A DNA stretch of 32,000 bases, taken from the NCBI RefSeq assembly GCF_000014265.1, contig NC_008312.1, positions 4,350,001 to 4,382,000 of the forward strand, given 5' to 3'. The notes under the pieces were generated by a model. That model made no database searches. It was not told the DNA's origin and was given only the letters and a program-made list of their open reading frames with translations. The position numbers and the translations under genes were made by a program. Every line of letters starts with the position of its first letter. Within the stretch, counting starts at the first letter, position 1. The stretch is from Trichodesmium erythraeum IMS101 (lineage in GTDB: Bacteria > Cyanobacteriota > Cyanobacteriia > Cyanobacteriales > Microcoleaceae). Below are positions 6,606 to 23,700 of the stretch, one piece after another.

Positions 6606-8057
6606 ATGAATGAAAGGAAAAAAAGCAGACGAGGTCGTATTCTGACAGATGAAGGGTTTGAGAAACTAAAAAATGCTGTAAATAAAAAGTTTCTCCTTGA
6701 TAATATCGAATCCACAGCTATTGAGCTTACAGAAATGTTAAGTCTAGTTATCCAGAATAAAGGAGAATTTAGTCTAAATACTTTAAAAAAAATCTGGAAG
6801 CGTGAAGAAAATACTGACATAAAATTTATTAAAGTAATAGCTGAAACTTTTGGTTTAAAATTTGAGGATGGTATTGACTATACCTATAAAGATGATACTG
6901 ATAATACTACAGAACAAAAAACTTCTTCTTCTCCTGCTACTGCTAAAATTGATACAGATATAGAAGATTATAATTTGCAGTGGGTAGGTCGCTGTGACCT
7001 AATTTCTGAGTTGAGGCAAAACCTGTTAGGTGAGTTGCGCATAATATCTATTGTTGGCATAACTGGTATTGGTAAAACTTCTCTGGCAATGCAACTTTCT
7101 GTTGACGAGCATATCTCAAATTACCTGACTTCCTCTTGGGTGAATTTTTATGATGCTCCAACTAAAACTTTTGATGTAGTAGCGCGACAGGTATTGGGGG
7201 AAAAGTTGGCTGCACAACCTCAGTTAAAACAGGATCGAGAAGTTCTACTGTTAACAATGATAAATGAGTTACAAGTTCGCCCGACTCTATTAATTATGGA
7301 TATGTTGGAAGGGGTCTTAATGCCTGAGGAGAAAGGTGGTTATCGGTGGAAGGAGGAAGAGTCTATTTTTGCAGATTTTCTAGGAAGAATAATACTAGCT
7401 GAAAATATGCCCTCTCGGATAATACTAACTTCTCAATATAGTTTACCTGTGTTAATACAAAGTAGGTATGATGATGTCCGACTCCTACAAGTCACTCTTA
7501 AGGGTTTAACTCAGGAGGAGTCTTTGGGACTATTTGAGAGCTGGAAAGTTAACATTGAGAATAATCAAATCAAAAATTTTTTAATCAGAATAATTAATAT
7601 TTATGATGGTCATCCTCTAGCTTTAAGGTTGATTGCTGGGGATATTATTAATGAACCTTATGATGGAGATTTTGAAGCTTTTTGGGAAGATAATAAACTA
7701 TATTTTGAAGCGATAGAGTCTCAGAATATAAATGGAGAAAATTTTGAGGGAAAAGATATTATTGATAGGGTTGGCAGTAGAGTGGAGGAAACTTTAAAAC
7801 GTTTATCTGTTTCTCACATTTTTGCTTATTTAATGTTATGTATGGGAGGAGAATTAGAATGTTTTGTAGAGAAAAATGCCTGGCTTCTGCTTTTGTGTAA
7901 TCTACCAAAAGAAGAACAGAATTTAGCTTTTGAAACTTTAAATAAAAGGTTTTTATTGGATCGAAAAAATTTTCAAAATAAAGCTTTTTATCGTCTTCAT
8001 AGTTTAATTAAAAATGTGGCAAATGAATATGATTTGGATAATTTTGAAAAAGATTGA
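6606..8057 (+). CDS. STAND NTPase, NB-ARC/AP-ATPase type, with small HTH-like N-terminal module (cassette 1 NOD)
   Basis: 483-aa ORF. Motifs in order: Walker A VGITGIGKTSLAMQL, Walker B LLIMDMLE, SRIILTSQ (RNBS-B/sensor-1 position), GHPLALRLIAGDI (GxP/GLPL motif), and FYRLHSLIKNV (MHD-like His motif) near the C-terminus. The N-terminal ~90 aa align by eye with the N-terminus of the 11784 paralog. Confidence 0.85.
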   Translation: MNERKKSRRGRILTDEGFEKLKNAVNKKFLLDNIESTAIELTEMLSLVIQNKGEFSLNTLKKIWKREENTDIKFIKVIAETFGLKFEDGIDYTYKDDTDNTTEQKTSSSPATAKIDTDIEDYNLQWVGRCDLISELRQNLLGELRIISIVGITGIGKTSLAMQLSVDEHISNYLTSSWVNFYDAPTKTFDVVARQVLGEKLAAQPQLKQDREVLLLTMINELQVRPTLLIMDMLEGVLMPEEKGGYRWKEEESIFADFLGRIILAENMPSRIILTSQYSLPVLIQSRYDDVRLLQVTLKGLTQEESLGLFESWKVNIENNQIKNFLIRIINIYDGHPLALRLIAGDIINEPYDGDFEAFWEDNKLYFEAIESQNINGENFEGKDIIDRVGSRVEETLKRLSVSHIFAYLMLCMGGELECFVEKNAWLLLLCNLPKEEQNLAFETLNKRFLLDRKNFQNKAFYRLHSLIKNVANEYDLDNFEKD

Positions 8058-8133
8058 TTAACTCGGCTTTAAAAAAAATAAACCTGAAGAAAAATACTTT
8101 TATCAAAATATAGATAATTAATTAAATTTAACC

Positions 8134-11091
8134 ATGGATAAAAAATATCAAATACTTGAAAAAATACAGGGATTATCTATTTATCAATTAAGTAATACTT
8201 ACTATGAAAAATCTGGTAAATTAATCACTGTTAAACCTCAAGAAAAGAAAAATATTTTTCTGAAAAATAGTATAGAAATCATCAAAAAAATTACTAGGTT
8301 GATGAAAATTAACTCTCCCCAAAATAAACTAAATTTATTAGAAAATAACTACTCGCCTCAACCAGAAAAAAAATTAACGGTGAGAGAAAAAGCTAACCTC
8401 CGCCTCGCCTATTATTGGTTAAAAATATATCAACCAGAACCAGGTGCATCTAACTTGGAAAAAGTCAAAGGATATCTGCAAGCCTTCCGTCATTTTGCCA
8501 AAATGGGAGAGTGGGAAAAAGCTAGTCAAATTCTTTCTCTTAAATTACCGCTAGTTGATGAAAATTTAGACACTCAACTAAATAGATGGGGTTACTATGA
8601 GGAATGTATGGAACTCTACAATAAATTATTAGGTAAATTAGACCAAAGCTGGGATGGTATTTGTTTAAATGGTTTGGGAAATGCTTACTTATCTCTCGGA
8701 AAATATCACAAAGCTATTGAGCATTATCAGCAGCACTTACAAATAGCTAAGGAAATAGGTGATCTTGGGGGACAGGGTATTGCTTTAGGGAATTTGGGAG
8801 ATGCTTACCATTCTCTAGAAGAATATAACAAAGCTATTGAGTATCATCAGCAGCATTTACAAATAGCGAAGGAAACAGGGGAACTCGGGGGAGAAGGTAT
8901 TGCTTTAGGGAATTTGGGAAGTGCTTACTATTCCCTGGGAAAATATCACAAAGCTATTGAGTGTCATCAGCAGCATTTACAAATAACAAAGGAAATAGGG
9001 AATATGAAACAGCAGGGCATTGCTTTAGGCAATTTAGGGAATGCTTACCATTCCCTAGGAGCATATCACAAAGCTATGGAATATCATCAACAGGACTTAG
9101 AAATAGTTAGGAAAATAGGCGATCTTGGGGGTGAGGGCATTGCTTTAGGGAATTTGGGAAGTGCTTACTATTCCTTGGGAGAATATCACAAAGCTATTGA
9201 GTCTCATCAGCAGCATTTACAAATAGCTAGAAAAATAGGCAATGTTAAACAGGAGGGTATTGCTTTGGGGAATTTGGGTAATGCTTACCATTCCCTAGGA
9301 GCATATCACAAAGCCATGGAATATCATCAACAGGACTTAGAAATAGTTAGGAAAATAGGGGATCCTGGGGGTGAGGGTAATGCTTTGGGAAATTTGGGTA
9401 ATGCTTACTATTTTTTGGGGGAATATCACAAAGCTATTGAACATCATCAGCAGCATTTACAGATAGCCAGAGAAATAGGTAGCCAGAAAGGAGAGGGTAA
9501 TGCTTTGGGAAATTTGGGTAATGCTTACTATTCTTTGGGGGAATATCACAAAGCTATTGAGCATCATCAGCAGCATTTACAAATAGCCAGAGAAATAGGC
9601 AACCAGAATAGAGAGGGTAATGCTTTGGGGAATTTGGGTAATGCTTACTATTCTTTGGGAGAATATCACAAAGCTATTGAGCATCATCAGCAGCATTTAC
9701 AAATAGCCAAAGAAATAGGCGATCGCTCTGGAGAAGGAAATGCTTTGGAGAATTTGGGTAATGCTTACTATTCCAGCAGAAAATACGACAAAGCTATTGA
9801 ACATCATCAGCAGTATTTACAAATAATTAGAGAAATAGGCGATCGCTCTGGAGAAGGAAATGCTTTGAGGAATTTGGGTAATGCTTACTATTCTAGCAGA
9901 AAATACGACAAAGCTATTGAAGATCATCAGCAATATTTACAAATAGCCCAAGAAATTGGCGATCGCTCTGGAGAAGGAAATGCTTTGGAGAATTTGGGAA
10001 ATGCTTACTATTCCAGCAGAAAATACGACAAAGCTATTGAACATCATCAGCAGTATTTACAAATAGCCCAAGAAATTGGCGATCGCTCTGGAGAAGGAAA
10101 TGCTTTGGGGAATTTGGGTAATGCTTACTGTTCCCTAGGAGAATATTACAAGGCTATTGAACATCATCAGCAGCATTTACAAATAGCCCAAGAAGTTGGC
10201 GATCGCTCTGGAGAAGGAAATGCTTTGGGGAATTTGGGTAATGTTTACTATTCTCTAGGAGAATATCACAAAGCTATTGAACATCATCAGCAGCATTTAC
10301 AAATAGCCCAAGAAATTGGCGATCGCTCTGGAGAAGGAAATGCTTTGGGAAATTTGGGAAATGCTTACTGTTCCCTAGGAGAATATCACAAAGCTATTGA
10401 GCATCATCAGCAGCATTTACAAATAGCCCAAGAAATAGGCGATCGCTATGAGGAGGGTAGTGCTTTGGGGAATTTGGGTAATACTTATGATTTTTTGGGA
10501 GAATACGACAAAGCTATGGAGTATCATCAGCAGCATTTACAAATAGCTAGGGAAATTGGCGATCGCTCTGGAGAGGGTAATGCTTTGGGGAATTTGGGAA
10601 ATGCTTACTATTCCCTGGAAGCATATCACGAAGCTATTGACCATCATCAGCGGCATTTACAAATAGCAAAGGAAACAGGCAACTTTAGAGGGGAGGGTGT
10701 TGCTTTGGGGAATTTAGGAAATGTTTACTTATCCCTAGGAGAATATTACAAGGCGATCGAGTCTTATCAGCAGAGCTTAGAAATAGCTAGAGAAATAGGT
10801 AACCGTTCTGGGGAAGGTGGTGCTTTGGGAAACTGGGGAAAAACTCTCCTCAAATTAGAAAAGTATGCCGACTCTTTGGAATATTCACAAGCAGCATTAG
10901 AGATATTTGAGCAGATAGGAAACCCTCATCACCAAGCAATAGTTCTGAAGAATATAGCAGAAACCTATCAAAATTTGGGGTTTTGGGATATGGCACGGCG
11001 GCATTGCGAGGAGGCGTTGGCTATTTTCACAGAATTAGGAGTGCCAGAGTTGAGAGAATGTCAGGAGTTGTTTGAGGTTCTTGAAAAATAA
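8134..11091 (+). CDS. TPR-repeat protein (20 x 40-residue TPR_12-like units), separate sensor-like partner of the NB-ARC gene (cassette 1)
   Basis: 985-aa ORF, same strand, 77 nt after the NB-ARC stop and in a different frame. A lead-in (...LAYYWLKIYQPE...VKGYLQAFRHFAKMGEWEKA...) is followed by units of the form GNALGNLGNAYYSLGEYHKAIEHHQQHLQIAxEIGDRSGE. Confidence 0.9.
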   Translation: MDKKYQILEKIQGLSIYQLSNTYYEKSGKLITVKPQEKKNIFLKNSIEIIKKITRLMKINSPQNKLNLLENNYSPQPEKKLTVREKANLRLAYYWLKIYQPEPGASNLEKVKGYLQAFRHFAKMGEWEKASQILSLKLPLVDENLDTQLNRWGYYEECMELYNKLLGKLDQSWDGICLNGLGNAYLSLGKYHKAIEHYQQHLQIAKEIGDLGGQGIALGNLGDAYHSLEEYNKAIEYHQQHLQIAKETGELGGEGIALGNLGSAYYSLGKYHKAIECHQQHLQITKEIGNMKQQGIALGNLGNAYHSLGAYHKAMEYHQQDLEIVRKIGDLGGEGIALGNLGSAYYSLGEYHKAIESHQQHLQIARKIGNVKQEGIALGNLGNAYHSLGAYHKAMEYHQQDLEIVRKIGDPGGEGNALGNLGNAYYFLGEYHKAIEHHQQHLQIAREIGSQKGEGNALGNLGNAYYSLGEYHKAIEHHQQHLQIAREIGNQNREGNALGNLGNAYYSLGEYHKAIEHHQQHLQIAKEIGDRSGEGNALENLGNAYYSSRKYDKAIEHHQQYLQIIREIGDRSGEGNALRNLGNAYYSSRKYDKAIEDHQQYLQIAQEIGDRSGEGNALENLGNAYYSSRKYDKAIEHHQQYLQIAQEIGDRSGEGNALGNLGNAYCSLGEYYKAIEHHQQHLQIAQEVGDRSGEGNALGNLGNVYYSLGEYHKAIEHHQQHLQIAQEIGDRSGEGNALGNLGNAYCSLGEYHKAIEHHQQHLQIAQEIGDRYEEGSALGNLGNTYDFLGEYDKAMEYHQQHLQIAREIGDRSGEGNALGNLGNAYYSLEAYHEAIDHHQRHLQIAKETGNFRGEGVALGNLGNVYLSLGEYYKAIESYQQSLEIAREIGNRSGEGGALGNWGKTLLKLEKYADSLEYSQAALEIFEQIGNPHHQAIVLKNIAETYQNLGFWDMARRHCEEALAIFTELGVPELRECQELFEVLEK
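8656..11088 (+). repeat. in-frame tandem array, 120-nt period, 20 units (TPR units of cassette 1)
   Basis: Unit boundaries fall at 8656 + n*120 (checked at 8656 and 9736). Units form local sub-blocks: units 3+4 resemble 5+6 (240-nt super-repeat), units 10-12 share SSRKYDKAIE, and units 13-15 share QIAQE(V/I)GDRSGE. Confidence 0.9.
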
Positions 11092-11364: not shown

Positions 11365-11538
11365 TTATTTATGCTTTCGTTTTTGTATCATGACTGGACG
11401 TAACACCCACAGTAAAAAGGCAACTGCTAAAATAATGCCGGTGGGACTGTTTCCATTTTTTAATAATGGAGTTGGATCTATGGGTAAAATGTTTGTGTTA
11501 GGTTGACTGCTACAAAGTATATTTTGTTTAGAAAACAT
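11365..11538 (-). CDS. possible small membrane-anchored protein (57 aa)
   Basis: This is the internal start of the track ORF 11365..11667: MFSKQNILCSSQPNTNILPIDPTPLLKNGNSPTGIILAVAFLLWVLRPVMIQKRKHK. The ATG is preceded by AAGGA about 9 nt upstream. The C-terminus is a hydrophobic helix plus a KRKHK tail. I recognise no homology. Confidence 0.25.
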   Translation of the reverse strand: MFSKQNILCSSQPNTNILPIDPTPLLKNGNSPTGIILAVAFLLWVLRPVMIQKRKHK

Positions 11539-11772
11539 CTTTTTTTTCCTTAAAGTATATTGGGTTTTTTTCAGGACTGACGCCAACTCACATAAAGACG
11601 CCATATTTAAGGGCGAATAGCATTTCCCCTCAGGGTCAGGGCCTAGCCGTGGGTAAGTCCTGTTCATATTTCTATCTTATTATGAGGTTTGGCAAGTCAA
11701 GGTGCAGTAATAGCTCAGTGTTTCTCATTGGAAAAAAAGTGAGCTATAATTGATCCGAAAAAAGGTTATTTT

Positions 11773-11783: not shown

Positions 11784-13232
11784 ATGGCGGTTAGTCTCAG
11801 AGCTTCTAGAGAGGGGCTGCAAAAGGTTGATGCAGCTAGAAAAAAGAAAGGTTGGACAAAAGCAGAGGATGCTTGGTGGGGACTAGCCCCAACTTCAAAA
11901 GCAACTTTAAAACGTTTTTGGCGCAGCATTCCCATTGAACGAGAAGCTTTTATTGCTATTTGTGAGAATGTTGGGGTTAACTGGGAAGAAATAGTGGACG
12001 AGACTCCTCCCTCACCTGACAGTTCTACTGTTAAATTTTTTTCTTATGATAATATTTGGGTGGGTAGAGAGGACCTGATAGCTGAACTTTCTACAAAAGT
12101 TAAAGAGTCTTGCCGCTTACTTATTCTTGTTGGTCTTAGTGGTATTGGTAAAACTGCTTTGGCTGAAAAATTAGCAGTGGAGCTACAGAAAGAATTTTTG
12201 CAGGGAGACTGGAGCAAGTTTCACCAGGAAAATTTGGAAAATACTGAAGCTAGAGATTTTCGTAGTGTTGCTTTTCGGTGGTTGAAAAAATGGGGTGAGT
12301 CTCTGACTCCTGATGATTTTAAGGATGTGAATAGGTTACTCTATAGACTGGTTTATCGTTTGCGAGAACATCGGTATTTGATAATTATTGACTCTCTGGA
12401 AAATATTTTGGTGGGAAATGAGGATCAGGGATGGAATAATTTTGAGGATAAGTTGTGGGTGAAATTTTGGGAGTTGTTTTTGGCATCTCCAGAATGTCAA
12501 AGTCGGATCATTTTGACTTCCCAAGACTTGCCTGAGGAAATTCCTGGACGTTATCAGAATTTCTGGGAGCATAAAGTTTTGACTGGTTTGAGTAAGTCGG
12601 AGCAGTTGCAGTTATTTGGGAAAACTGGGTTGGAGGTTGAGGAAAATTCTGTGAATTTACCTTATCTACAAAGTATTGGTAATGCTTATGAGGGTCATCC
12701 TTTGGCGTTGCGGGTCATTGCGGGGGAAATTTGTGGCAAACCTTTTAATGGTAATGTGGTGGCTTATTGGAAAAAGTATGGTAAAGAAATTGAAGAGGTG
12801 GAAAAGGCTATTGAGGAAGGGAGGACTCAGGGGGTAACTGTTGGTGCTGATGATAAGTTTCAGCTAGACAGATATACCCGTATGTTGCGGAAAAATGTCA
12901 GTCAACGACTAGATAAAACTTTTCTCCGGTTGCAGAAAGATGCTGTTAATGCTTATCGGTTAATTTGTGTTGGTGCAATATATAGGTGTGAGGTGCCAGA
13001 GAGTTTTTGGTTGAAACTTTTGAAAACTTGGCAGTGCGATGAAGAAAAGCAAGAGGCGGCATTGCAGACTTTGCGCGATCGCTTTTTGGTTGAGGATGTG
13101 GGAGTTGATGAAAGTGGTGAGTTTCTATTTAGGCAACATAATTTAATTCGTAGTGTGTCACTAGAACATTTAAAAAAATTGGATAAAGCAAGAGGTGGCA
13201 TTGCAGAATTTATGCGATCGCTTTTTGGTTGA
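11784..13232 (+). CDS. STAND NTPase, NB-ARC/AP-ATPase type, with HTH-like N-terminal module (cassette 2 NOD)
   Basis: 482-aa ORF. The N-terminus LRASREGLQKVDAARKKKGWTKAED...SKATLKRFWRSIPIEREAFIAICENVGVNWEEIVD is XRE-HTH-like. Motifs: Walker A VGLSGIGKTALAEKL, Walker B YLIIIDSLE, SRIILTSQ, GHPLALRVIAGEI, and FRQHNLIRSV (MHD-like). The 3' end is altered by a 139-bp tandem duplication. Confidence 0.88.
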   Translation: MAVSLRASREGLQKVDAARKKKGWTKAEDAWWGLAPTSKATLKRFWRSIPIEREAFIAICENVGVNWEEIVDETPPSPDSSTVKFFSYDNIWVGREDLIAELSTKVKESCRLLILVGLSGIGKTALAEKLAVELQKEFLQGDWSKFHQENLENTEARDFRSVAFRWLKKWGESLTPDDFKDVNRLLYRLVYRLREHRYLIIIDSLENILVGNEDQGWNNFEDKLWVKFWELFLASPECQSRIILTSQDLPEEIPGRYQNFWEHKVLTGLSKSEQLQLFGKTGLEVEENSVNLPYLQSIGNAYEGHPLALRVIAGEICGKPFNGNVVAYWKKYGKEIEEVEKAIEEGRTQGVTVGADDKFQLDRYTRMLRKNVSQRLDKTFLRLQKDAVNAYRLICVGAIYRCEVPESFWLKLLKTWQCDEEKQEAALQTLRDRFLVEDVGVDESGEFLFRQHNLIRSVSLEHLKKLDKARGGIAEFMRSLFG

Positions 13233-13323
13233 GGATGTGGGAGTTGATGAAAGTGGTGAGATTCTACTTAGGCAACATAATTTAATTCGTAGTATGTCAC
13301 TGGAACATTTAAAAAAATTGGAT
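13046..13323 (+). repeat. 139-bp tandem duplication (13046..13184 and 13185..13323) across the 3' end of the NB-ARC gene
   Basis: The two copies align base for base with a handful of substitutions (for example the HIP1 sites at 13075 and 13214 are offset by 139). Because 139 is not a multiple of 3, copy 2 is read out of frame and the ORF stops at 13230..13232. Confidence 0.9.
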
Positions 13324-15670
13324 GAGGAAGATGGTTGATACTGAAAATAATACCCAAGGTGGAGTTATTCTACCTTCTGCTGAGTCTGTTTTGAAATTGT
13401 TGAACCTGGACCCTGATGGCCTTATGTCCATTAAGCCACTTTCCAAACGTCTTCAATATCAGGCTGTTATTATCTGGTTGAGTGACTACAAATGTCCGCA
13501 AAGAGTAAATGATAATTTAGAGGTGGTAAAAGGCTATCTGGAAGCATTTTATCATCTTTGTGAAGTGGGAGACTGGGAACGAGCAAAGCAAATTTATTTT
13601 ATTAAAGTACCGCCAGTTAATGAAGAGTTACGTACTCAACTAATGAGGTGGGGTTGTTATAAGGAATGTATTCAACTCTACAGTAGACTATTAGGTAAAT
13701 TAGACCAATATTGGGATGGTATTTGTTTAACTGATTTAGGTAATGTTTACTATTCCCAAGGAGAATATGACAAAGCTATGGAGTATTATCAGCAGCGTTT
13801 ACAAATAGCTAGGGAAATTGGCGATCGTTCTGGGGAGGGTGGTGCTTTGGGGAATTTGAGTAATGTTTACTATTCCCAAGGAGAATATGACAAAGCTATG
13901 GAGTATTATCAGCAGTCTTTACAAATAGCTAGGAAAATTGGCAACCGTTCTTGGGAGGTTGCTGCTTTGATAGGTTTGGGTGATTTTTACGATTCCCAAG
14001 GAGAATATGACAAAGCTATGGAGTATTATCAGCAGTCTTTACAAATAGCTAGGGAAATAGGCAACCGCTCTGGGGAGGGTATTGCTTTGGGAAATTTGGG
14101 TAATGTTTACTATTCCCAAGGAGAATATGACAAAGCTATGGAGTATCATCAGCAGGATTTACAAATAGCTAGGGAAATTGGCAACCGTTCTGGGGAGGGT
14201 ATTGCTTTGGTGAATTTGGGTGTAGTTTACAATTCCCAAGGAGAATATGACAAAGCTATGGAGTATTATCAGCAGTCTTTACAAATAGCTAGGGAAATTG
14301 GCGATCGCTCTGGGGAGGGTGGTGCTTTGGGAAATTTGGGTAATGTTTACAATTCCCAAGGAGAATATGACAAAGCTATGGAGTATTATCAGCAGTCTTT
14401 ACAAATAGCTAGGGAAATTGGCGATCGCTCTGGGGATGGTAATGCTTTGATGGGTTTGGGTAATGTTTACTATTCCCAAGGAGAATATGACAAAGCTATG
14501 GAGTATTATCAGCAGCATTTACAAATAGCTAGGGAAATAGGCGATCGCTCTGGGGAGGGTCGTACTTTGGGGAATTTGGGTCTTGTTTACTATTCCCAAG
14601 GAGAATATGACAAAGCTATGGAGTCTTATCAGCAGGATTTACAAATAGCTAGGGAAATAGGCGATCGCTCTGGGGAGGGTATTTCTTTGGGGAATTTGGG
14701 TGATGTTTACTATTCCCAAGGAGAATATGACAAAGCTATGGAGTATTATCAGCAGCATTTACAAATAGCTAGGGAAATTGGCGATCGCTCTGGGGAGGGT
14801 AATGCTTTGATGGGTTTGGGTAATGTTTACCATTCCCAAGGAGAATATGACAAAGCTATGGAGTATTATCAGCAGTCTTTACAAATAGCTAGGGAAATTG
14901 GCAACCGTTCTGGGGAGGGTAATGCTTTGGGGAATTTGGGTAATGTTTACAATTCCCAAGGAAAATATGACAAAGCTATGGAGTATTATCAGCAGCATTT
15001 ACAAATAGCAAGGGGAATTGGCGATCGTTCTGGGGAGGGTCGTGCTTTGGGAAATTTGGGTGTAGTTTACAATTCCCAAGGAGAATATGACAAAGCTATG
15101 GAGTATTATCAGCAGTCTTTACAAATAGCTAGGCAAATAGGCAACCGTTATGGGGAGAGTAATACTTTGGGGAATTTGGGTAATGTTTACAATTCCCAAG
15201 GAGAATATGACAAAGCTATGGAGTATCATCAGCAGTCTTTACAAATAGCTAGGCAAATAGGCAACCGTTCTGAGGAGGGTATTGTTTTAGGGAATTTGGG
15301 TAAAGTTTACAATTCCCAAGGAGAATATGACAAAGCTATGGAGTATCATCAGCAGTCTTTACAAATAGCTAGGGAAATAGGCAACCGTTATTGGGAGGGT
15401 ATTGCTCTAGGAAATTGGGGAGAAACTCTGCTCAAGTTAGAAAAATATGCCGCATCTCTGGAATATTCACAAGCTGCATTAGAGATATTTAAGCAGATAG
15501 GAAACCCTCATCACCAAGGAATAGCTCTTAAGAATATAGCAGAAACTCATCAACATTTAGGAAATTTAGATGCAGCACGACAGTATTGCGATGAGGCATT
15601 AGCTATTTTCACAGAATTAGGAGCGCCAGAATTGAAAGAATGTCAAGAATTCCGCGATAAATTGGGGTAG
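13322..15670 (+). CDS. TPR-repeat protein (16 x 40-residue units), separate sensor-like partner (cassette 2)
   Basis: 782-aa ORF with an alternative start at ATG 13331. The lead-in ...VKGYLEAFYHLCEVGDWERA...RWGCYKECIQLYSRLLGKLDQYWDG is homologous to the cassette-1 lead-in. Units have the form GxALGNLGNVYxSQGEYDKAMEYYQQxLQIAREIG(D/N)RSGE. The C-terminal cap is about 80% identical by eye to the cassette-1 cap. Confidence 0.9.
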   Translation: MRKMVDTENNTQGGVILPSAESVLKLLNLDPDGLMSIKPLSKRLQYQAVIIWLSDYKCPQRVNDNLEVVKGYLEAFYHLCEVGDWERAKQIYFIKVPPVNEELRTQLMRWGCYKECIQLYSRLLGKLDQYWDGICLTDLGNVYYSQGEYDKAMEYYQQRLQIAREIGDRSGEGGALGNLSNVYYSQGEYDKAMEYYQQSLQIARKIGNRSWEVAALIGLGDFYDSQGEYDKAMEYYQQSLQIAREIGNRSGEGIALGNLGNVYYSQGEYDKAMEYHQQDLQIAREIGNRSGEGIALVNLGVVYNSQGEYDKAMEYYQQSLQIAREIGDRSGEGGALGNLGNVYNSQGEYDKAMEYYQQSLQIAREIGDRSGDGNALMGLGNVYYSQGEYDKAMEYYQQHLQIAREIGDRSGEGRTLGNLGLVYYSQGEYDKAMESYQQDLQIAREIGDRSGEGISLGNLGDVYYSQGEYDKAMEYYQQHLQIAREIGDRSGEGNALMGLGNVYHSQGEYDKAMEYYQQSLQIAREIGNRSGEGNALGNLGNVYNSQGKYDKAMEYYQQHLQIARGIGDRSGEGRALGNLGVVYNSQGEYDKAMEYYQQSLQIARQIGNRYGESNTLGNLGNVYNSQGEYDKAMEYHQQSLQIARQIGNRSEEGIVLGNLGKVYNSQGEYDKAMEYHQQSLQIAREIGNRYWEGIALGNWGETLLKLEKYAASLEYSQAALEIFKQIGNPHHQGIALKNIAETHQHLGNLDAARQYCDEALAIFTELGAPELKECQEFRDKLG
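13718..15667 (+). repeat. in-frame tandem array, 120-nt period, 16 units (TPR units of cassette 2)
   Basis: Units start at 13718 + n*120. The 14 core units (13718..15397) are nearly identical, including at synonymous sites. Differences cluster at a few codons. Confidence 0.92.
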
Positions 15671-15953: not shown

Positions 15954-16712
15954 ATGGTAAACTACAACAAATTACTTAATCTACCATCAAGTGACGAATT
16001 ACCAGATTCAGATAACAAACCCGTGGATCATGAAATACAAGTTATTATTCCTAACCTGCTCAAACAGATTTTAAATCTATTGTGGGGCGATCGCCAAGAT
16101 TGGTTTTTTGGGGTCAACATGGGAATTTACCACACCACAGGGTCAAACCCTAGAATTGCCATAGTTCCTGATGGTTTCCTCAGTTTAGGAGTGACACGAC
16201 TCAAAAATGATAACTTGCGACCCTCCTATATTCTTTGGGAGGAAAATTATATTGTTCCCATACTGGTATTAGAAATTGTTTCTAAAACCTATGGGGATGA
16301 ATACGAGCAAAAAATGATTGATTATGCTCGTATGGGAGTATTATATTATGTCATCTATAACCCAGATTATTCCAAGCGGGACAAACACAAACAATTTGAA
16401 GTATATCATTTACGAAATGGAGTATACGAACCTCAGCTCGGAAATCCCGTGTGGATGCCAGAAATTGGTCTAGGGATAGGGTCTGAAGTTGGTAATCATG
16501 AACGTTGCCAAAGAGAGTGGTTGTATTGGTATGACTCTCAAGGGAACAGGCTCATGACCCCAGAAGAGAAAACACTTCAGCAACAACAACGAGCTGAACA
16601 AGAACGGCAACGAGCTGAACAAGAACGGCAACGAGCTGAACAAGAACGGCAACGAGCTGAAAAACTTGAACAAATGTTACGTTCTCTTGGCATTGATCCA
16701 GAACAGTTATAG
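15954..16712 (+). CDS. Uma2-family (DUF820) PD-(D/E)xK nuclease-like protein
   Basis: 252-aa ORF. IAIVPDGF and LVLEIVSKTY match the Uma2 PD...E.xS/K core. The C-terminus has a coiled-coil (QRAEQER)n tail ending in LRSLGIDPEQL, which I recall as typical of cyanobacterial Uma2 proteins. Confidence 0.8.
   Translation: MVNYNKLLNLPSSDELPDSDNKPVDHEIQVIIPNLLKQILNLLWGDRQDWFFGVNMGIYHTTGSNPRIAIVPDGFLSLGVTRLKNDNLRPSYILWEENYIVPILVLEIVSKTYGDEYEQKMIDYARMGVLYYVIYNPDYSKRDKHKQFEVYHLRNGVYEPQLGNPVWMPEIGLGIGSEVGNHERCQREWLYWYDSQGNRLMTPEEKTLQQQQRAEQERQRAEQERQRAEQERQRAEKLEQMLRSLGIDPEQL
16587..16662 (+). repeat. perfect 21-nt tandem repeat, 3.6 copies (caacgagctgaacaagaacgg), encoding (QRAEQER)n
   Basis: Units at 16587..16607, 16608..16628 and 16629..16649 are identical. 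A fourth partial unit runs to 16662. Confidence 0.95.
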
Positions 16713-17769: not shown

Positions 17770-20700
17770 ATGATAAAGATGTTCGAAACAGGTGACATAA
17801 ATGTCAACAAAATCGATGACCCCCTCGTTCCCTTAGAGGGGCAGTCTGATGTTGAACAGATAATCACAAGCAGTAGTACAAGCAATATAGAACATAATTT
17901 CCTTGGTTTATCTTCTGAGTCAGAGTTGCTTGATACAGCTGAAAGTCTCTCTAAAAGTACAGAAACAACCGTAGAAAAGACAGAGATTATAACCCCAGGA
18001 GACGTCAAAGGGACAGAGAAAGAGGATATTGATACTATTACTGGTGAAGCACTAAAAAACCTCAATGTTACTCCTCTAGAAGAAGACCTACTAACTAAAA
18101 CTAGGATTACAAACCGGAAAAGGAGCAAAAAGATAGACCCCGGGAGTGATGCCGAAAATGCTCATGACTTGGACAAAATCGGAAAATCTCCGACTACATA
18201 TAATGAAAAGATTGGGTATAGATCTGGTGGTTCGAGGGACAAAAGTGACTACTACAAATTCACCCTCCAAGGCCAGAAAAAGCAAAAATTCAACGACTTA
18301 AATATTGTCCTTGATGGTCTAAATGCTAATGCTAATATTCAACTTTTTGATGAGGATGGCAAAACTATTATCGACCAGTCGCGAAAAAAGGGCAAGAGGG
18401 AGGAGGAAATTAACCAAATACTCAATAATGGGACTTATTACTTGAACGTTCAAGCCCAAGGTAAGGCTAAAACTCAATATAGTTTGAGTTTGAGTTCGGA
18501 TCAGGTCAAAGACGAAGATGGTAAAAGGAAAGATGCACAAGATTTGGGCTCACTCAAAAAGAAGCCTCAACGCATTAAGGATGACATTGGTTTCCAACTG
18601 GGGAGCGTTCGCGACCAAAAAGACTTTTTTGAGTTTTCTGTGAATAGAGACAGTGAAGTTACTATTACCCTTGATGCTTTAAAGGAAGATGCTAATCTGA
18701 AGCTCTTGAATAAACAGGGTAGTTTGCTGTTTAGTTCTAGCAATGAAAATCGCGAAAAAGAAAAGATTAATACTATTCTGGAGAAAGGTAAATATTTTGT
18801 AGAAGTCGCTCCAGAATCAGGCGATCGTACCAATTATATGTTGAGTCTAAGTGCCGATGATGAAATTGAAGACCCGGACGGTCAAATACCAGGGAAAAAC
18901 CTGGGAAAACTTACATCTAAAACCATCAGCAAAACGGACAGGATAGGTTCTCAAAGGGGTTTTATAGACAGTGACGACTTCTGGGAATTTCAACTAACCA
19001 AAGAGACAGATTTAACTATAAATCTTGACAGCTTGAAGGCAAATGCTGACTTGGAACTGTACGATAGTGATGGAACTACTTTGATTTTTAGTTCCAAGAA
19101 CGAAGGCAGAGAAGAGGAAGAAATAGAGGCTATTTTAGAAAAAGGTATTTATTATGTTCGAGTGAAATCTGTCGGTGGTAGCAGTACCAAGTACAGACTG
19201 AGTTTATCTGGGGATACCGATATAACTGAGGAAGATGACAAACTGCCAGGAACGTCATTGGGAGAATTGGGTGCTGAAGAAGTAACGCAACGGGATAGAA
19301 TAGGCTTCGGAAGAGGTAGCCTTCGCGACTTTCAAGACTATTATAGCTTTAGCTTAGGAGAAAAAAGTGATGTTAATATTAGCCTTGATAACTTGAGAGC
19401 TAATGCTGAGTTAGAGTTATTAGGAATTGATGGTCGAACTATTGAAAAATCGAACAAAAAAGGGCGAGCTAGTGAAACAATTGACAGCATACTCGCTCCT
19501 GGAGATTACTATGTTAAAGTGTCTCCCGTAGGGAAAGCGAAAACTAAATACGATTTGGGGTTAACTGCAAATCCGGCCATTGATGATTATTCAAATCCTA
19601 AACAGGCTAAAGAAATTGGAATTCTTTATGAAGAAAATACCTATGAAGAAACTAATGAAATTGGTTTTAAACGAGGTAGTGTTCGTGACTTTGCTGACTA
19701 CTTTCATTTTGAGTTAGCTCAGTCCCAGCAAGTTAATATTTCTCTTGATAACTTGAGGAAAAATGCCGGTTTGCAGTTACTTGGTGGTGAAAACGGTAAG
19801 AAACAGATAGAGATATCTAATGAAAAAGGCCGCCAACCGGAGGAAATTAATAAAGATTTGGAACCGGGCAATTATTATGTCAAGGTCTTTTCGGTTGGCA
19901 AGTTAAAAACTGGATATGAGTTGAGTTTTGAGGCTTTATCGCCAGATGAAGCGCCTTATGTAGTTGCTCCAGGTATTGAGGATGTCAAGGTAAAAGAAGA
20001 CAGAAATATTCGTCCTTTTAATGTCTCCAAGTTCTTCAAAGATCCAGATAGCAGAATTGAAACAATAGAGGTGACAGACAATACCAACCCGGGACTAGTA
20101 ATTCCTTCAGAGAAAAACAAAAATCTCAAAGGTAAGAAATTAGAGTTAGAGTTGGTCAAAAATCAGAATGGTTATGGGGAGATTACCATTACCGCAACTT
20201 CCAAAGGTAAGACGGTCTCCGATACTTTCGCTGTCGACGTAACTCCAGTAGACGATCCACCAAAACTTAAGTTGCCGATCGACAATGTTAATGTTGATGA
20301 AGATGCTCCTAAAAAGGAAATCACTTTATCTAATCATTTTGAGGACATCGACAGCGATCTTACATATAAGGTCATCAATAACAATAACGGTAGTTTGCTT
20401 TCTCCTTCTATTAACGGCAACACCCTCACCTTAGAATTTTCAAAGGACCAGAATGGTGAAGCCAAAATTAAGGTTCAGGCAACTGGTGATGGTAAATCTG
20501 TTACTGATACTTTTACTGTGAATGTTGATCCAGTGGACGATCCACTGTTTGTTGACAAACCCAGAGAAAATTTATCTGTTGAGGAAGATAATCCTAACGA
20601 GGTCATCGATCTGTCAAAAGTTTTTAAGGACATAGATAGCCAGATAACTTTAGCTTTTAGCGACGATAACAACACCAACCAAAACTTAGTCAAGGCAACT

Positions 20701-23700
20701 TTAGACTCTGAGAGTCAAACCCTAAGCCTCAATTTTGAGGCAGATCAACACGGCGAAGCTGATGTCACAGTTACTGCAAATTCTGATGGCAAACCTGTGG
20801 AGGATAGCTTTACGGTCACTGTCGCTCCGGTAGATGATCCTCCCCGCCTGATTAAGGAAATAAATGATCTCAATGTCCTAGAGGATGCTGATAATACTAA
20901 CATCAACCTAAGTGAACATTTTGAAGATGTAGATAGTGTTATCAACTACAGCGTTGTTGCTAATAATAATACTGGCATGGTCAAAGATAGTGCTAACGGT
21001 AATATCCTGAACTTAGATTATGTGCAGGACAAGTACGGCAGCGGAGATATTACTGTTCGGGCAGAATCTAACGGTTTATCCGTAGAGGATACCTTTACTG
21101 TGAACGTGGCTCCAGTGGACGATCCCCCAAAAGTGGTGAATCCGATAGCTGATGTATCAGTAAATGAGGATGCACCAGCCACCTCTATAGACTTATCTAA
21201 CGTATTTAGCGATATTGATAACGAGGATGCAGCCATCACAAAAGCAGTAATTACTAATAGTAACTCAGGCTTAGTGACTCCAGTAATTGATGGCAACAAC
21301 CTGAGCTTGAATTATATACCTAATGCTAGTGGTATAGCTGAGATTACAGTAGAAGGAACATCCAATGGTCTCACAGTCAGTGATACCTTTACTGTAAACG
21401 TGGCTCCAGTGGACGATCCGATAGTAGTGGTGAATCAGATAGCTGATGTATCAGTAAATGAGGATGCACCAGCCACCTCTATAGACTTATCTAACGTATT
21501 TAGCGATTCTGATAACGAGGATGCAGCCATCACAAAAGCAGTAATTACTAATAGTAACTCAGGCTTAGTGAATCCGGTAATTGAGGGTAACAACCTGAGC
21601 TTGAATTATATACCTAATGCCAGTGGTATGGCTGAGATTACAGTAGAAGGAACATCCAATGGTCTCACAGTCAGTGATACCTTTACTGTAAACGTGGCTC
21701 CAGTGGACGATCCGATAGTAGTGGTGAATCAGATAGCTGATGTATCAGTAAATGAGGATGCACCAGCCACCTCTATAGACTTATCTAACGTATTTAGCGA
21801 TTCTGATAACGAGGATGCAGCCATCACAAAAGCAGTAATTACTAATAGTAACTCAGGCTTAGTGAATCCAGTAATTGATGGCAACAACCTGACTTTGAAT
21901 TATATGCCTAATGCTAGTGGTGTGGCTGAGATTACAGTAGAAGGAACATCCAATGGTCTCACAGTCAGTGATACCTTTACTGTGAACGTGGCTCCAGTGG
22001 ACGATCCGATAGTAGTGGTGAATCAGATAGCTGATGTATCAGTAAATGAGGATGCACCAGCCACGTCTATAGACTTATCTAACGTATTTAGCGATTCTGA
22101 TAACGAGGATGCAGCCATCACAAAAGCAGTAATTACTAATAGTAACTCAGGCTTAGTGAATCCAGTAATTGATGGCAACAACCTGACTTTGAATTATATG
22201 CCTAATGCTAGTGGTGTGGCTGAGATTACAGTAGAAGGAACATCCAATGGTCTCACAGTCAGTGATACCTTTACTGTGAACGTGGCTCCAGTGGACGATC
22301 CGATAGTAGTGGTGAATCAGATAGCTGATGTATCAGTAAATGAGGATGCACCAGCCACCTCTATAGACTTATCTAACGTATTTAGCGATATTGATAACGA
22401 GGATGCAGCCATCACAAAAGCAGTAATTACTAATAGTAACTCAGGCTTAGTGAATCCGGAAATTGAGGGTAACAACCTGACTTTGAATTATATACCTAAT
22501 GCTAGTGGTGTAGCTGAGATTACAGTAGAAGGAACATCCAATGGTCTCACAGTCAGTAATACCTTTACTGTGAACGTGGCTCCAGTAGACGATCCGCCAG
22601 TAGTGGTGAATCCGATCGCTGATGTATCAGTAAATGAGGATGCACCAGCCACCTCTATAGACTTATCTAACGTATTTAGCGATATTGATAATGATGATGC
22701 AGCCATCACAAAAGCAGTAATTACTAATAGTAACTCAGGCTTAGTGAATCCAGTAATTGATGGCAACAACCTGACTTTGAATTATATACCTAATGCTAGT
22801 GGTGTGGCTGAGATTACAGTAGAAGGAACATCCAATGGTCTCACAGTCAGTGATACCTTTACTGTGAACGTGGCTCCAGTGTACGATCCCCCAGACTATC
22901 CGCCAGTAGTGGCCAATCCGATCGCTGATGTTGTTGTTAATGAGGATGCACCAGCCACGTATATAGACTTATCTAACGTATTTACCGATATTGATAACGA
23001 CGATGCAGACATCACAAAAGCAGTAATTACTAATAGTAACTCAGGCTTAGTGACTCCAGTAATTGATGGCAACAACCTGAGCTTGAATTATATACCTAAT
23101 GCCAGTGGTATGGCTGAGATTACAGTAGAAGGAACATCCAATGGTCTCACAGTCAGTGATACCTTTACTGTGAACGTGGCAGTAACTACAGGCAGGTCTA
23201 GCTGGGAGGGTACTCTAGGCAGCGATGATGATGATAATCCTACTCGTAATGGCAAGTATTATGATGATTACCTTCTGAATGGAGTCTCTCCAGGGGAGCA
23301 GGTCACAGTCGACATGACTGCCTCTTTTGATACTTACTTGCAACTGGTAAACGCTGCAACAGGAGAAGTAATTGCCTACAATGATGATGGTGGTTCTGGT
23401 GCTAACTCTAGCTTGACCTTTACAGTAGAATCAAATATTAATTATCTGATTCGGTCTACTAGCTATTCTTCAGGAGCGACTGGTGTTTACACTGTGGAAA
23501 CATCACGGGGCCTCATGATTCTGAGGGACGATGTTCCGCCAGTAGTGGCCAATCCGATCGCTGATGTTGTTGTTGATGAGGATGCACCAGCCACCTCTAT
23601 AGACTTATCTAACGTATTTAGCGATATTGATAACGAGGATGCAGCCATCACAAAAGCAGTAATTACTAATAGTAACTCAGGCTTAGTGACTCCAGTAATT

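What the first reader, a model, noticed from the sequence alone, without database searches (positions are those of the whole stretch)
13718..15397. TPR array with a homogenised scaffold but variable codons at predicted ligand-facing positions
Seen: the 14 core units are almost identical at DNA level, including synonymous sites (for example tattcccaaggagaatatgacaaagctatggagta recurs essentially unchanged in every unit). Number the unit G1 x2 A3 L4 G5 N6 L7 G8 N9 V10 Y11 x12 ... A20 ... Y24. The amino-acid differences then concentrate at positions 2 (I/G/N/R/A), 3, 5-6 (GN/MG/VN/IG/TD), 9 (N/D/V/L/K), 12 (Y/N/H/D), 27 (S/H/D/R), 33, 36 and 38-39. Established: L4, L7, G8, Y11, A20 and F/Y24 are the canonical TPR scaffold positions. 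Helix-A positions 2, 5, 9, 12 and 13 line the concave groove that contacts ligands in solved TPR-peptide complexes. Inference: the pattern looks like concerted evolution (unequal crossover or gene conversion) of the scaffold combined with diversification of the binding surface. This behaviour has been described for highly internally conserved repeats of fungal NLR sensors, and it would fit a rapidly re-targetable recognition domain.
Basis: partly seen in the sequence, partly recalled or inferred. Interest (0 to 1): 0.65.

Follow-up and report, generated by a model that had tools for sequence, protein, structure and literature searches.

The report
Repeat sensor array with variable groove
A Trichodesmium-like cyanobacterium encodes 14 nearly identical 40-residue TPR repeats that differ mainly at residues predicted to line the inner binding groove; this matches the pattern known from fungal immune-receptor repeats, and the array is the separately encoded sensor partner of an NB-ARC (NLR-like) ATPase, so it is a clear bacterial example of a known kind.

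Summary
Window 13718-15397 is exactly 14 in-frame 120-nt units (89% nt identity, all distinct) inside a 782-aa TPR ORF. Scaffold positions are 95% identical and eleven variable positions 44%. Helix A carries 71% of the amino-acid entropy, on one helical face. The canonical TPR groove positions 2, 5, 6, 9, 12, 13 carry 44% (p=0.0003).

pN/pS at those codons is 2.3 here, which is not significant alone (p=0.15). Pooled over six independent cyanobacterial arrays of the same repeat type, omega is about 3.0 (p=0.0004), against 0.47 elsewhere. Mosaic sharing of variants indicates exchange between units.

The units are 40-residue LGN/Pins-type TPRs, not 34-residue ones. Positions 38-39 lie in the first turn of helix A and position 36 is the residue just before it. 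The neighbouring paralogous array lacks the pattern.

The gene is the detached sensor of a conserved two-gene module, with an NB-ARC ATPase carrying an XRE-like HTH. High internal conservation of bacterial NLR repeats is already in the literature, so this is a new member of a known kind. Strain comparison failed because short-read assemblies collapse the array.

The parts
13718..15397 (+). 14 core TPR units of exactly 120 nt (40 aa) each. This is the homogenised array with variable helix-A codons.
   Evidence: TRF period 120, 14.1 copies, 90% matches, 0% indels. The codon table gives the variable positions.
15398..15637 (+). Two degenerate C-terminal cap TPR units. They are not homogenised and correspond to the caps of the paralogous array.
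   Evidence: 88% and 80% nt identity to cap units 19 and 20 of array 1, but only about 57% to the core units.
13322..15670 (+). TPR sensor ORF of 782 aa. A second possible start lies at 13331.
   Evidence: TPR_12 E=4e-174; AF2 pLDDT 91.7, pTM 0.87, all-helical solenoid.
13322..13717 (+). Non-repeat helical N-terminal region of the sensor protein. It is the family-specific part and probably the region that docks on the ATPase (inferred).
   Evidence: conserved at 35-80% identity in 24 metagenome loci. In P0041 it is fused directly to the NB-ARC C-terminus.
11784..13232 (+). Partner gene: an XRE-like HTH followed by an NB-ARC STAND ATPase, 482 aa.
   Evidence: NB-ARC 35.2 bits against a cut-off of 23.5. 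Walker A GLSGIGKT, Walker B LIIIDSLE and the GHPLAL motif are read directly from the translation; hundreds of stand-alone homologues of about 470 aa.
11784..11999 (+). N-terminal five-helix domain of the ATPase with an XRE-type helix-turn-helix fold (moderate confidence).
   Evidence: pLDDT 70. The best PDB matches are all XRE-family DNA-binding domains (VanUg, ComR, PrgX, CapH-N, SinR), with probability up to 0.97 but E=0.07-0.6.
13046..13323 (+). 139-nt tandem duplication (2 copies, 94% identical) across the ATPase/sensor junction. It shifts the last codons of the ATPase ORF and separates the two ORFs by 90 nt.
6606..8057 (+). Paralogous NB-ARC ATPase of the upstream tandem module. It is 34% aa identical to the partner gene above.
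8134..11091 (+). Paralogous TPR sensor of 985 aa, with 18 core units (8656-10815) and 2 caps. It is less homogenised (79% nt) and has block duplications.

Best explanation
The array is the ligand-recognition domain of a bacterial NLR-like (STAND) module that is encoded as two genes.

Partner gene. The upstream gene encodes an XRE-like HTH fused to an NB-ARC ATPase.

Sensor gene. This gene encodes a free-standing TPR solenoid of 14 near-identical 40-residue LGN-type units plus two caps. In this repeat type helix A of every unit lines the inside of the superhelix. The variable residues form a stripe along that helix at positions 38, 39, 2, 3, 5, 6, 9 and 12. Each unit therefore contributes its own patch to one long groove.

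How the array evolves. The 120-nt units are similar enough to recombine. Unequal crossing-over and gene conversion keep the scaffold uniform, change the unit number and reshuffle the patches. Selection favours amino-acid change at the groove codons.

Proposed signalling (inferred). A non-self protein or peptide binds in the groove. This relieves inhibition of the NB-ARC partner, which oligomerises on ATP and signals through its N-terminal HTH. In paralogues the N-terminal domain is a PNP_UDP enzyme instead.

Shown here: the repeat anatomy, the concentration of variation on one face of helix A, mosaicism between units, the NB-ARC partnership and its conservation, and omega above 1 at the groove codons when pooled over the repeat family.

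Inferred: ligand binding in the groove, an immune or conflict role, activation in trans, and transcriptional output.
For: Anatomy and variable positions. Scaffold positions are 95% identical and the variable positions 44%.

Structure.
- The AF2 model has pLDDT 91.7. Helix A spans unit positions 37'-13 and helix B spans 17-33.
- The closest natural solved structures are LGN/Pins TPR domains, at 33-35% identity, all in complexes with peptides.
- PMC6525239 states that helix A faces the inner side and that the ligand lies in the inner groove.
- Unit numbering aligns one-to-one with consensus TPR. PMC1261162 places positions 2, 5, 9, 12, 13 on the concave face, and HOP uses 2, 5, 6, 9, 12, 13.
- Statistics: helix A holds 71% of entropy (p=0.004) and the canonical set 44% (p=0.0003).

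Selection.
- At the canonical codons pN/pS is 2.33, against 0.59 elsewhere.
- All six arrays tested have omega above 1 there. Pooled, S=8.7 and N=92.3, giving omega 3.0 (p=0.0004), against 0.47 elsewhere.
- 51 internally conserved arrays show the same entropy peaks at positions 2, 12 and 9.

Concerted evolution and shuffling.
- Identity is 0.894 within the array and 0.774 between arrays, with no decay over distance.
- 140 of 253 site pairs are four-gamete incompatible.
- Orthologues carry 2, 3, 5 or 8 core units against 14 here.

Module.
- The NB-ARC hit passes the Pfam cut-off.
- The split with adjacent or overlapping stop and start codons is conserved in Okeania, Oscillatoriaceae and other cyanobacteria.
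- A 1-nt variant fuses the two genes in frame.
- Paralogues carry a PNP_UDP N-terminal domain, a domain known in fungal NLRs.
- Between two strains the sensor gene is far more diverged (pS 0.06-0.19) than the ATPase gene (pS 0.003).
Against: - In this array alone the excess of non-synonymous change is not significant (p=0.145).
- Synonymous variation is also absent from codons 13-30, so patchy homogenisation contributes to the pattern.
- The paralogous array 1 in the same window has omega 0.72 at the groove codons and mostly uniform helix A.
- The Okeania SIO2C9 orthologue repeats GIALGNLGLAYY five times.
- The NB-ARC protein matches no PADLOC defence model.
- No ligand or effector gene was identified.
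- The HTH assignment rests on a model with pLDDT 70 and weak Foldseek E-values.
- No independent assembly confirms the unit order.
Confidence: 0.62

Rival explanations
1. Neutral relaxation. Gene conversion homogenises the units. The positions that vary are simply the solvent-exposed, least constrained residues of any TPR. There is no selection for new specificities.
For: - Whole-array pN/pS is 0.93, close to neutral.
- The single-array test at the groove codons is not significant.
- The same positions are the most variable ones in TPRs in general.
- Synonymous variants also cluster outside the invariant core.
Against: - Pooled omega at the groove codons is 3.0, significantly above 1 (p=0.0004), and exceeds 1 in all six arrays.
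- Many variable codons differ by two or three bases, for example GGG/ATG/ATA/ACT at codon 5 and AAT/GTA/CTT at codon 9, while their neighbours are identical.
- Exposed helix-B and loop positions are not comparably variable.
Confidence: 0.17
2. Fixed bespoke groove. The unit-specific residues are old and are kept by purifying selection, because the solenoid reads one particular long endogenous ligand. The module would then be a MalT/AfsR-like or RRNPP-like HTH regulator. Conversion erases differences everywhere else. The array is not being retargeted.
For: - The partner protein has an XRE-like HTH rather than a killing domain.
- STAND transcription factors with TPR sensors exist: TPR_MalT matches with E=2e-58, and AfsR appears among the PDB hits.
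- Multi-base codon differences would also fit old, retained variation.
Against: - Orthologues and close strains differ widely in unit number (2, 3, 5, 8, 14), and orthologous unit 1 differs at positions 5, 6 and 12 between strains.
- The sensor gene is 20-fold or more diverged at synonymous sites relative to its ATPase partner.
- Paralogues swap the HTH for a PNP_UDP enzyme domain, which is typical of conflict systems.
Confidence: 0.15
3. Assembly artefact. The 14-unit array, or its pattern of variants, is a chimeric reconstruction of a repeat that the sequencing could not resolve.
For: - Another assembly of the same organism has a 100-N gap and chimeric units here.
- Six metagenome contigs break inside the array.
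- Every difference between the window and that assembly lies in repeats.
Against: - The window array has perfect 120-nt periodicity, an intact 782-codon frame and 14 distinct units differing by at least 7 nt.
- Assembly errors would not place variation on one helical face.
- The same pattern is seen in arrays from megabase-scale contigs (4.8-7.9 Mb).
Confidence: 0.04
4. Targeted hypermutation by a diversity-generating retroelement.
For: DGRs diversify putative sensors in multicellular bacteria (PMC10907252, listed). Several variable codons are AAT.
Against: - No ORF of 100 aa or more in the window encodes a reverse transcriptase.
- Only 7 of 35 variable columns have A as the majority base, and substitutions arise from all four bases.
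- The variation is spread over 14 tandem units rather than one variable region paired with a template.
Confidence: 0.01

Closest known systems
Highly internally conserved TPR repeats of fungal NLRs (e.g. [quoted passage not shown] 2014, PMC4986451)
   Same: - NB-ARC-associated TPR array with above 80% identity between units.
- Polymorphic and positively selected sites lie on the concave face of the helices.
- Repeat-number differences and concerted evolution.
   Different: - The fungal units are 42-residue TPR_10/KLC-type repeats fused to the NOD. Here they are 40-residue LGN-type units on a separate polypeptide.
- The host is a cyanobacterium.
- Positive selection in this single array is not significant on its own.
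NLR-like NB-ARC/TPR and NACHT/WD proteins of filamentous bacteria (Dyrka et al. 2020, bioRxiv 10.1101/2020.01.06.895854)
   Same: - Same phylogenetic setting, filamentous cyanobacteria.
- The paper states that bacterial NLRs include TPR and WD repeats with 80-90% internal identity, and suggests they may diversify as in fungi.
   Different: - That paper gives no positional or dN/dS analysis of the bacterial repeats in the passages read.
- The module here has no Bell or amyloid motif. It has an XRE-like HTH and is split into two genes.
LGN (GPSM2)/Pins TPR domain (PDB 3sf4, 3ro2, 4wnd, 6hc2, 4a1s)
   Same: - 40-residue repeat with the LGN motif, aligning without gaps at 33-35% identity.
- Superhelix with helix A inside.
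- Extended peptides bind the inner groove.
   Different: - It is a eukaryotic polarity scaffold with 8 diverged repeats.
- It shows no internal homogenisation and has no NTPase partner.
Avs and related bacterial STAND pattern-recognition receptors (PMC13581612)
   Same: STAND NTPase with a TPR-like sensor that binds one foreign protein and triggers oligomerisation.
   Different: - Avs sensors are fused, irregular, non-homogenised TPR-like domains that recognise conserved phage folds by shape.
- The NB-ARC protein here matches no PADLOC model.
STAND transcription factors MalT/AfsR and RRNPP regulators (PrgX, ComR)
   Same: An HTH DNA-binding domain combined with a TPR sensor. RRNPP proteins bind peptides in the TPR groove. 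TPR_MalT and AfsR appear among the hits.
   Different: - Those sensors are diverged single-copy repeats bound to one cognate ligand and are fused to the HTH.
- RRNPP proteins have no NTPase.

Membership tests
TPR repeat (Pfam clan CL0020), LGN/Rapsyn-like 40-residue subtype | Significant profile match and helix-turn-helix units with scaffold residues L4, L7, G8, Y11, A20, Y24 | tested here: met
   - TPR_12 E=4e-174, TPR_1 E=1e-124.
- L4, L7, Y11 and A20 are invariant, and G8 is present in 13 of 14 units.
- two 17-residue helices per unit.
TPR repeat (Pfam clan CL0020), LGN/Rapsyn-like 40-residue subtype | 40-residue period aligning without gaps to LGN/Pins repeats | tested here: met
   - period 120 nt.
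- ungapped alignment to Pins over 190 residues.
- LGN/Pins are the top natural structural matches (TM 0.5-0.63 to target).
NLR-like STAND module (NB-ARC + superstructure-forming repeats) | NB-ARC/AP-ATPase domain with Walker A, Walker B and the GxP motif | tested here: met
   PF00931 scores 35.2 bits against a cut-off of 23.5. GLSGIGKT, LIIIDSLE and GHPLAL are present in the translation.
NLR-like STAND module (NB-ARC + superstructure-forming repeats) | NOD and repeats on one polypeptide (the classical tripartite architecture) | tested here: not met
   - two ORFs, conserved as a split across genera.
- They are fused only in variant P0041/L016 and in more distant homologues such as P0013 and P0014.
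NLR-like STAND module (NB-ARC + superstructure-forming repeats) | Physical and functional coupling of sensor and NOD, with ligand-triggered oligomerisation | not testable with these tools
   Only genetic linkage, start/stop overlap in orthologues and one in-frame fusion variant support coupling.
Highly internally conserved (HIC) NLR repeats sensu Dyrka et al. 2014 | Repeat units with very high internal conservation (their screen used 85% similarity; Dyrka 2020 quotes 80-90% identity) | tested here: met
   89% nt identity, 81% pairwise aa identity and 88% aa identity to the consensus. This is at the lower edge of the criterion.
Highly internally conserved (HIC) NLR repeats sensu Dyrka et al. 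2014 | Variable or selected sites map to the concave binding face | tested here: met
   The mapping is by position homology and helical phase, not by measured coordinates. Positions 24, 27 and 33 on helix B remain unresolved.
Highly internally conserved (HIC) NLR repeats sensu Dyrka et al. 2014 | Positive selection (omega above 1) at those sites | tested here: inconclusive
   For the window array omega is 2.3 with p=0.145. Pooled over six arrays of the repeat family omega is 3.0 with p=0.0004.
Highly internally conserved (HIC) NLR repeats sensu Dyrka et al. 2014 | Repeat-number and repeat-order polymorphism between strains | tested here: inconclusive
   Relatives carry 2, 3, 5 or 8 units. However, the conspecific assemblies are gapped, chimeric or possibly collapsed.
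Known anti-phage defence systems (PADLOC-DB 2.0) | Profile match of the NTPase to a catalogued system | tested here: not met
   no model matches either NB-ARC protein. Only generic TPR accessory models match the sensors.
Diversity-generating retroelement target | Nearby reverse transcriptase and template repeat, with adenine-specific substitutions | tested here: not met

The most novel reading that the evidence does not exclude
The array may be a cassette-shuffling repertoire generator working on ecological time scales. In the filamentous, colony-forming host, recombination among the 120-nt units would produce coexisting array variants between genome copies, filaments or colonies. The free-standing sensor protein, acting in trans on an HTH-NB-ARC switch, would then provide a population-level or quasi-somatic repertoire of recognition grooves that turns on transcription. 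That would be a bacterial counterpart of the reshuffling proposed for fungal and brown-algal NB-ARC-TPR genes.

Nothing here excludes this reading.
- All differences between two otherwise identical assemblies lie in the repeats.
- One collapsed consensus carries a codon combination (M-D at positions 5-6) absent from the window.
- These observations are equally well explained by assembly artefacts.
Probability: 0.07. Interest if true: 0.85.

Novelty: new member of a known kind. Interest (0 to 1): 0.45.

Why it matters
Fungal NLR repeats are the standard example of a receptor domain that stays uniform by recombination while its binding residues diversify. For bacteria, this behaviour has only been suggested in the papers read here.

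This locus gives a clean bacterial case. It has exact 120-nt units, a high-confidence solenoid model and a defined stripe of variable residues. It comes with family-wide evidence that the groove codons change faster than neutral.

It also shows the sensor as a separate, translationally coupled protein, with a naturally occurring one-base fusion variant. That makes sensor-NOD coupling testable by simple genetics.

For Trichodesmium it marks candidate non-self recognition genes. It also warns that such genes are systematically broken or collapsed in short-read metagenome assemblies.

Tried and rejected
- Strain comparison of unit order. The exact NB-ARC protein was found on 9 contigs. The long one (L001) has a 100-N gap and chimeric units in the array. 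Six short contigs end inside the arrays. The exact TPR protein is on no other record. This route was uninformative.
- L016/P0041, a strain 96-98% identical in the flanks, has only 2 core units. It is a MEGAHIT k119 contig and may be collapsed, so I used it only for the flanking genes.
- Programmed frameshift or read-through joining the two ORFs was rejected. The frame relation differs among orthologues: -1, +1, and in frame after a stop.
- A DGR was rejected.
- Rfam gave no match in the window.
- Pfam gave no significant match for the ATPase N-terminal domain or for the sensor N-terminal region.
- PADLOC gave no match for the NB-ARC proteins.
- Residue-level LGN-ligand contacts could not be obtained. 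The primary structure papers (PMC3158460, PMC3228485) are not held, so I relied on PMC6525239 and PMC1261162.
- I could not measure distances in the AF2 model, because only secondary structure and confidence are returned. Concave versus convex is therefore assigned by homology and helical phase.
- The metagenome scan for relatives of the sensor N-terminal region found 24 loci. All have 0-8 full-length units and lower internal identity (0.29-0.70 aa). None is a second copy of this array.
Full report
**What is there**

The finding's coordinates are exact. Window 13718-15397 is 14 head-to-tail units of exactly 120 nt with no indels (TRF period 120, 90% matches). All units are in frame inside ORF 13322-15670, which encodes 782 aa. 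Two degenerate cap units (15398-15637) and a short tail follow.

Mean pairwise identity is 0.894 at the nucleotide level and 0.813 at the protein level. All 14 units are different.

The codon table confirms the listed variable positions.

| Unit position | Entropy (bits) |
|---|---|
| 2 | 2.12 |
| 9 | 1.81 |
| 3 | 1.63 |
| 5 | 1.63 |
| 27 | 1.61 |
| 12 | 1.59 |
| 33 | 1.29 |
| 6 | 1.09 |
| 36 | 1.0 |
| 39 | 0.95 |
| 38 | 0.59 |

The 29 other positions are 95% identical between units, and these eleven are 44% identical. Codons 13-15, 17-22, 25-26 and 28-30 are invariant, including their third positions. Synonymous variants do occur, at codons 4, 5, 7, 31, 34 and 37.

**Repeat type and structure**

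The unit is 40 residues, not 34. Pfam gives TPR_12 at E=4e-174. The sequence aligns position for position with consensus TPR over residues 1-30. It also aligns without gaps with the 40-residue repeats of LGN/Pins, the closest natural solved structures.

An AlphaFold2 model built on a 33-sequence alignment is confident (pLDDT 91.7, pTM 0.87). It shows two 17-residue helices per unit.
- Helix A runs from position 37 of the previous unit to position 13.
- Helix B runs from position 17 to position 33.
- The loops are positions 14-16 and 34-36.

The concentration of variation is statistically supported.
- Helix A holds 71% of all amino-acid entropy (permutation p=0.004).
- The variability moment points to about 126 degrees, opposite the packing residues L4, L7 and Y11 (p=0.019).
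- The a priori set 2, 5, 6, 9, 12, 13 holds 44% of entropy (p=0.0003).

Magliery & Regan place positions 2, 5, 9, 12 and 13 on the concave face, and HOP uses 2, 5, 6, 9, 12 and 13 to hold its peptides (PMC1261162). In LGN, helix A faces the inside of the superhelix and ligands lie in the inner groove (PMC6525239; PMC5844954).

I could not measure this in the model, because coordinates are not returned. The concave assignment is therefore by homology and helical phase. Positions 24, 27 and 33 on helix B, about a fifth of the entropy, are left unexplained.

**Selection**

Nei-Gojobori estimates for this array are as follows.

| Codon set | pN/pS |
|---|---|
| All 40 codons | 0.93 |
| Canonical groove codons (2, 5, 6, 9, 12, 13) | 2.33 |
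| The other 34 codons | 0.59 |

Counted as minimum mutation events, the groove codons have S=2 and N=20. That excess is not significant alone (binomial p=0.145).

I tested whether the pattern is general in two ways. First, I extracted units from the homologues found. In 51 proteins whose units are at least 72% identical to each other, within-protein entropy peaks at positions 2 (2.00), 12 (1.96) and 9 (1.44). The next highest are 38, 24, 27 and 13.

Second, I fetched DNA for four such arrays, three of them on contigs of 4.8-7.9 Mb, and added an Okeania orthologue. Every array has omega above 1 at the groove codons, ranging from 1.33 to infinity. Pooled with the window array, S=8.7 and N=92.3, giving omega 3.0 (p=0.0004). 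The other codons give omega 0.47.

Diversifying selection on the groove is therefore supported for this repeat family. The window array behaves like the rest, but it does not prove the point by itself.

There are also counter-examples.
- The paralogous array in the same window has omega 0.72 at these codons.
- The Okeania SIO2C9 orthologue has five units sharing the same helix A.

**Homogenisation and shuffling**

Units are more alike within the array (0.894) than between the two arrays of the window (0.774). Identity does not decline with distance between units. Of 253 pairs of informative sites, 140 show all four combinations. This needs recombination between units or repeated mutation.

The two modules are old paralogues. 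Their ATPases are only 34% identical and the sensor N-terminal regions 46% identical. Yet the arrays and C-terminal caps are 77-88% identical in DNA. That suggests exchange between the two arrays as well.

Unit number varies widely among relatives.

| Source | Core units |
|---|---|
| This window | 14 |
| Strain L016 (93-98% identical in DNA) | 2 |
| Okeania KiyG1 | 3 |
| Metagenome relative L021 | 5 |
| Okeania SIO2C9 | 8 |

**Why strains could not be compared**

The identical ATPase protein occurs on nine other contigs. The long contig (GCA_018457135.1) is 100% identical to the window outside repeats. Inside this array it has a 100-N gap and chimeric units. All 43 differences between it and the window lie in this array or in the 294-nt repeats of the large downstream gene.

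Six metagenome contigs start in array 1 and end in unit 1 of array 2. The exact sensor protein is on no other record. Short reads cannot resolve these arrays. The 2-unit version in L016 may also be a collapsed assembly.

**Genomic context**

The gene is the second half of a two-gene module. Upstream, 11784-13232 encodes a 482-aa protein with an NB-ARC domain that passes the Pfam cut-off. It carries the Walker A motif GLSGIGKT, the Walker B motif LIIIDSLE and the GHPLAL motif.

Hundreds of stand-alone homologues of about 470 aa exist in filamentous cyanobacteria. In Okeania, Oscillatoriaceae and other cyanobacteria the ATPase gene is followed directly by the TPR gene, with overlapping or adjacent stop and start codons. 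The frame relations differ between taxa. The split is therefore genuine, and it argues for translational coupling rather than frameshifting.

In this window a 139-nt tandem duplication (13046-13323) changes the last residues of the ATPase and moves the ORFs 90 nt apart. A 92%-identical orthologue keeps the duplication. Strain L016 lacks it, and there a one-base difference fuses the two ORFs in frame.

The first 70 residues of the ATPase model as a five-helix bundle. Its best PDB matches are all XRE-type DNA-binding domains. The support is weak, with pLDDT 70 and E-values of 0.07-0.6.

Paralogues replace this domain with a PNP_UDP phosphorylase domain, a known NLR effector domain in fungi. A second, older copy of the whole module lies at 6606-11091.

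Between the window and L016, synonymous divergence is 0.003 in the ATPase gene. It is 0.06-0.19 in the sensor gene.

**Most likely mechanism**

This is an NLR-like switch with a detached sensor. The TPR solenoid offers a long inner groove built from 14 interchangeable patches. Recombination between the 120-nt units keeps the scaffold uniform and reshuffles, adds or removes patches. Selection favours change at the groove residues.

Three further steps are inferred by analogy and not shown here.
- A foreign protein or peptide binds in the groove.
- That binding activates the NB-ARC partner.
- The signal is passed on through the HTH.

The analogies are LGN-peptide complexes, bacterial STAND receptors (PMC13581612) and STAND transcription factors.

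**Rival explanations**

- Neutral relaxation at exposed sites is weakened by the pooled omega and by the multi-base codon differences.
- A fixed groove for one endogenous ligand is weakened by unit-number variation and by the fast-diverging sensor gene.
- An assembly artefact is unlikely given the perfect frame, the distinct units and replication in arrays from megabase-scale contigs.
- A diversity-generating retroelement is excluded. There is no reverse transcriptase, and only 7 of 35 variable columns have A as the majority base.

**Novelty**

Highly internally conserved TPR, ANK and WD repeats with selected concave-face residues are established for fungal NLRs (PMC4986451). Dyrka et al. 2020 already note that bacterial NLRs include TPR and WD repeats of 80-90% internal identity and suggest that they may diversify in the same way.

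The finding is therefore a new, well-resolved member of a known kind. Three things are added here: the positional and omega analysis for cyanobacterial arrays, the 40-residue LGN-type unit, and the conserved split HTH-NB-ARC plus TPR architecture with a natural fusion variant.

Noticed in passing
window 13046-13323: A 139-nt tandem duplication (94% identical copies) spans the end of the NB-ARC ORF and the start of the TPR ORF. It replaces the last residues ...LDEEDG with ...LDKARGGIAEFMRSLFG. It is retained in a 92%-identical orthologue (P0121). It is absent in strain L016, where a 1-nt difference fuses the two ORFs in frame (P0041, 769 aa).
   Followed up: yes
window 6606-11091: A second, older copy of the whole module lies here. 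Its NB-ARC is 34% identical and its TPR protein has 18 core units. The units are only 79% identical in DNA and show block duplications (units 3/5, 4/6 and 10-12 are alike). Helix A is mostly uniform. The array and caps are much closer to array 2 (77-88% nt) than the rest of the genes are, which suggests exchange between the two arrays.
   Followed up: partly
window-wide; in the arrays at 9719-10559 and 14301-14781: The cyanobacterial HIP1 palindrome GCGATCGC occurs 29 times in 32 kb, against 0.11 expected from composition. Thirteen copies lie inside the TPR arrays at codons 35-37 (GGC GAT CGC). Their presence tracks the D36/N36 dimorphism of the units.
   Followed up: partly
window 17770-24783 (repeats 21088-23180 and 23535-24110): A 2337-aa protein with PPC and Por_Secre_tail-like domains carries 294-nt tandem repeats (7.1 and 2 copies, 95% identical). 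The other assembly of this organism has its second N-gap here. All remaining window/L001 differences are also here.
   Followed up: no
window 11784-15670 versus L016 1923-4232: Between two strains the NB-ARC gene is almost identical (pS 0.003, 12 differences). The adjacent TPR gene is much more diverged: pS is 0.064 in the N-terminal region, 0.084 in the caps and 0.19 in unit 1. The sensor gene therefore has a different history from its partner.
   Followed up: partly
window 15954-16712 (repeat 16587-16661): A Uma2-family putative endonuclease gene carries a perfect 21-nt x 3.6 repeat encoding QRAEQER. It is syntenic downstream of the module in Okeania (L010, L011) and partly deleted in L016. 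Whether it belongs to the module is unknown.
   Followed up: no
proteins P0227-P0239: Close paralogues of the NB-ARC protein (61-64% identical over 82% of the query) carry an N-terminal PNP_UDP_1 nucleoside phosphorylase domain in place of the XRE-like HTH. This is an effector swap like that seen in fungal NLRs.
   Followed up: no
proteins P0003, P0005, P0028, P0032, P0040: Coral (Pocillopora, Acropora, Stylophora, Porites) TTC28-like CHAT-TPR proteins are among the best hits. Those tabulated (P0003, P0005, P0028, P0040) have 40-residue units with 0.79-0.89 internal identity. The homogenised LGN-type array is therefore not confined to cyanobacteria.
   Followed up: no
window 11365-11667, minus strand: A 100-aa ORF lies between the two modules. 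It has a C-terminal hydrophobic stretch and matches no family. It is called as a gene in every assembly of the locus.
   Followed up: no
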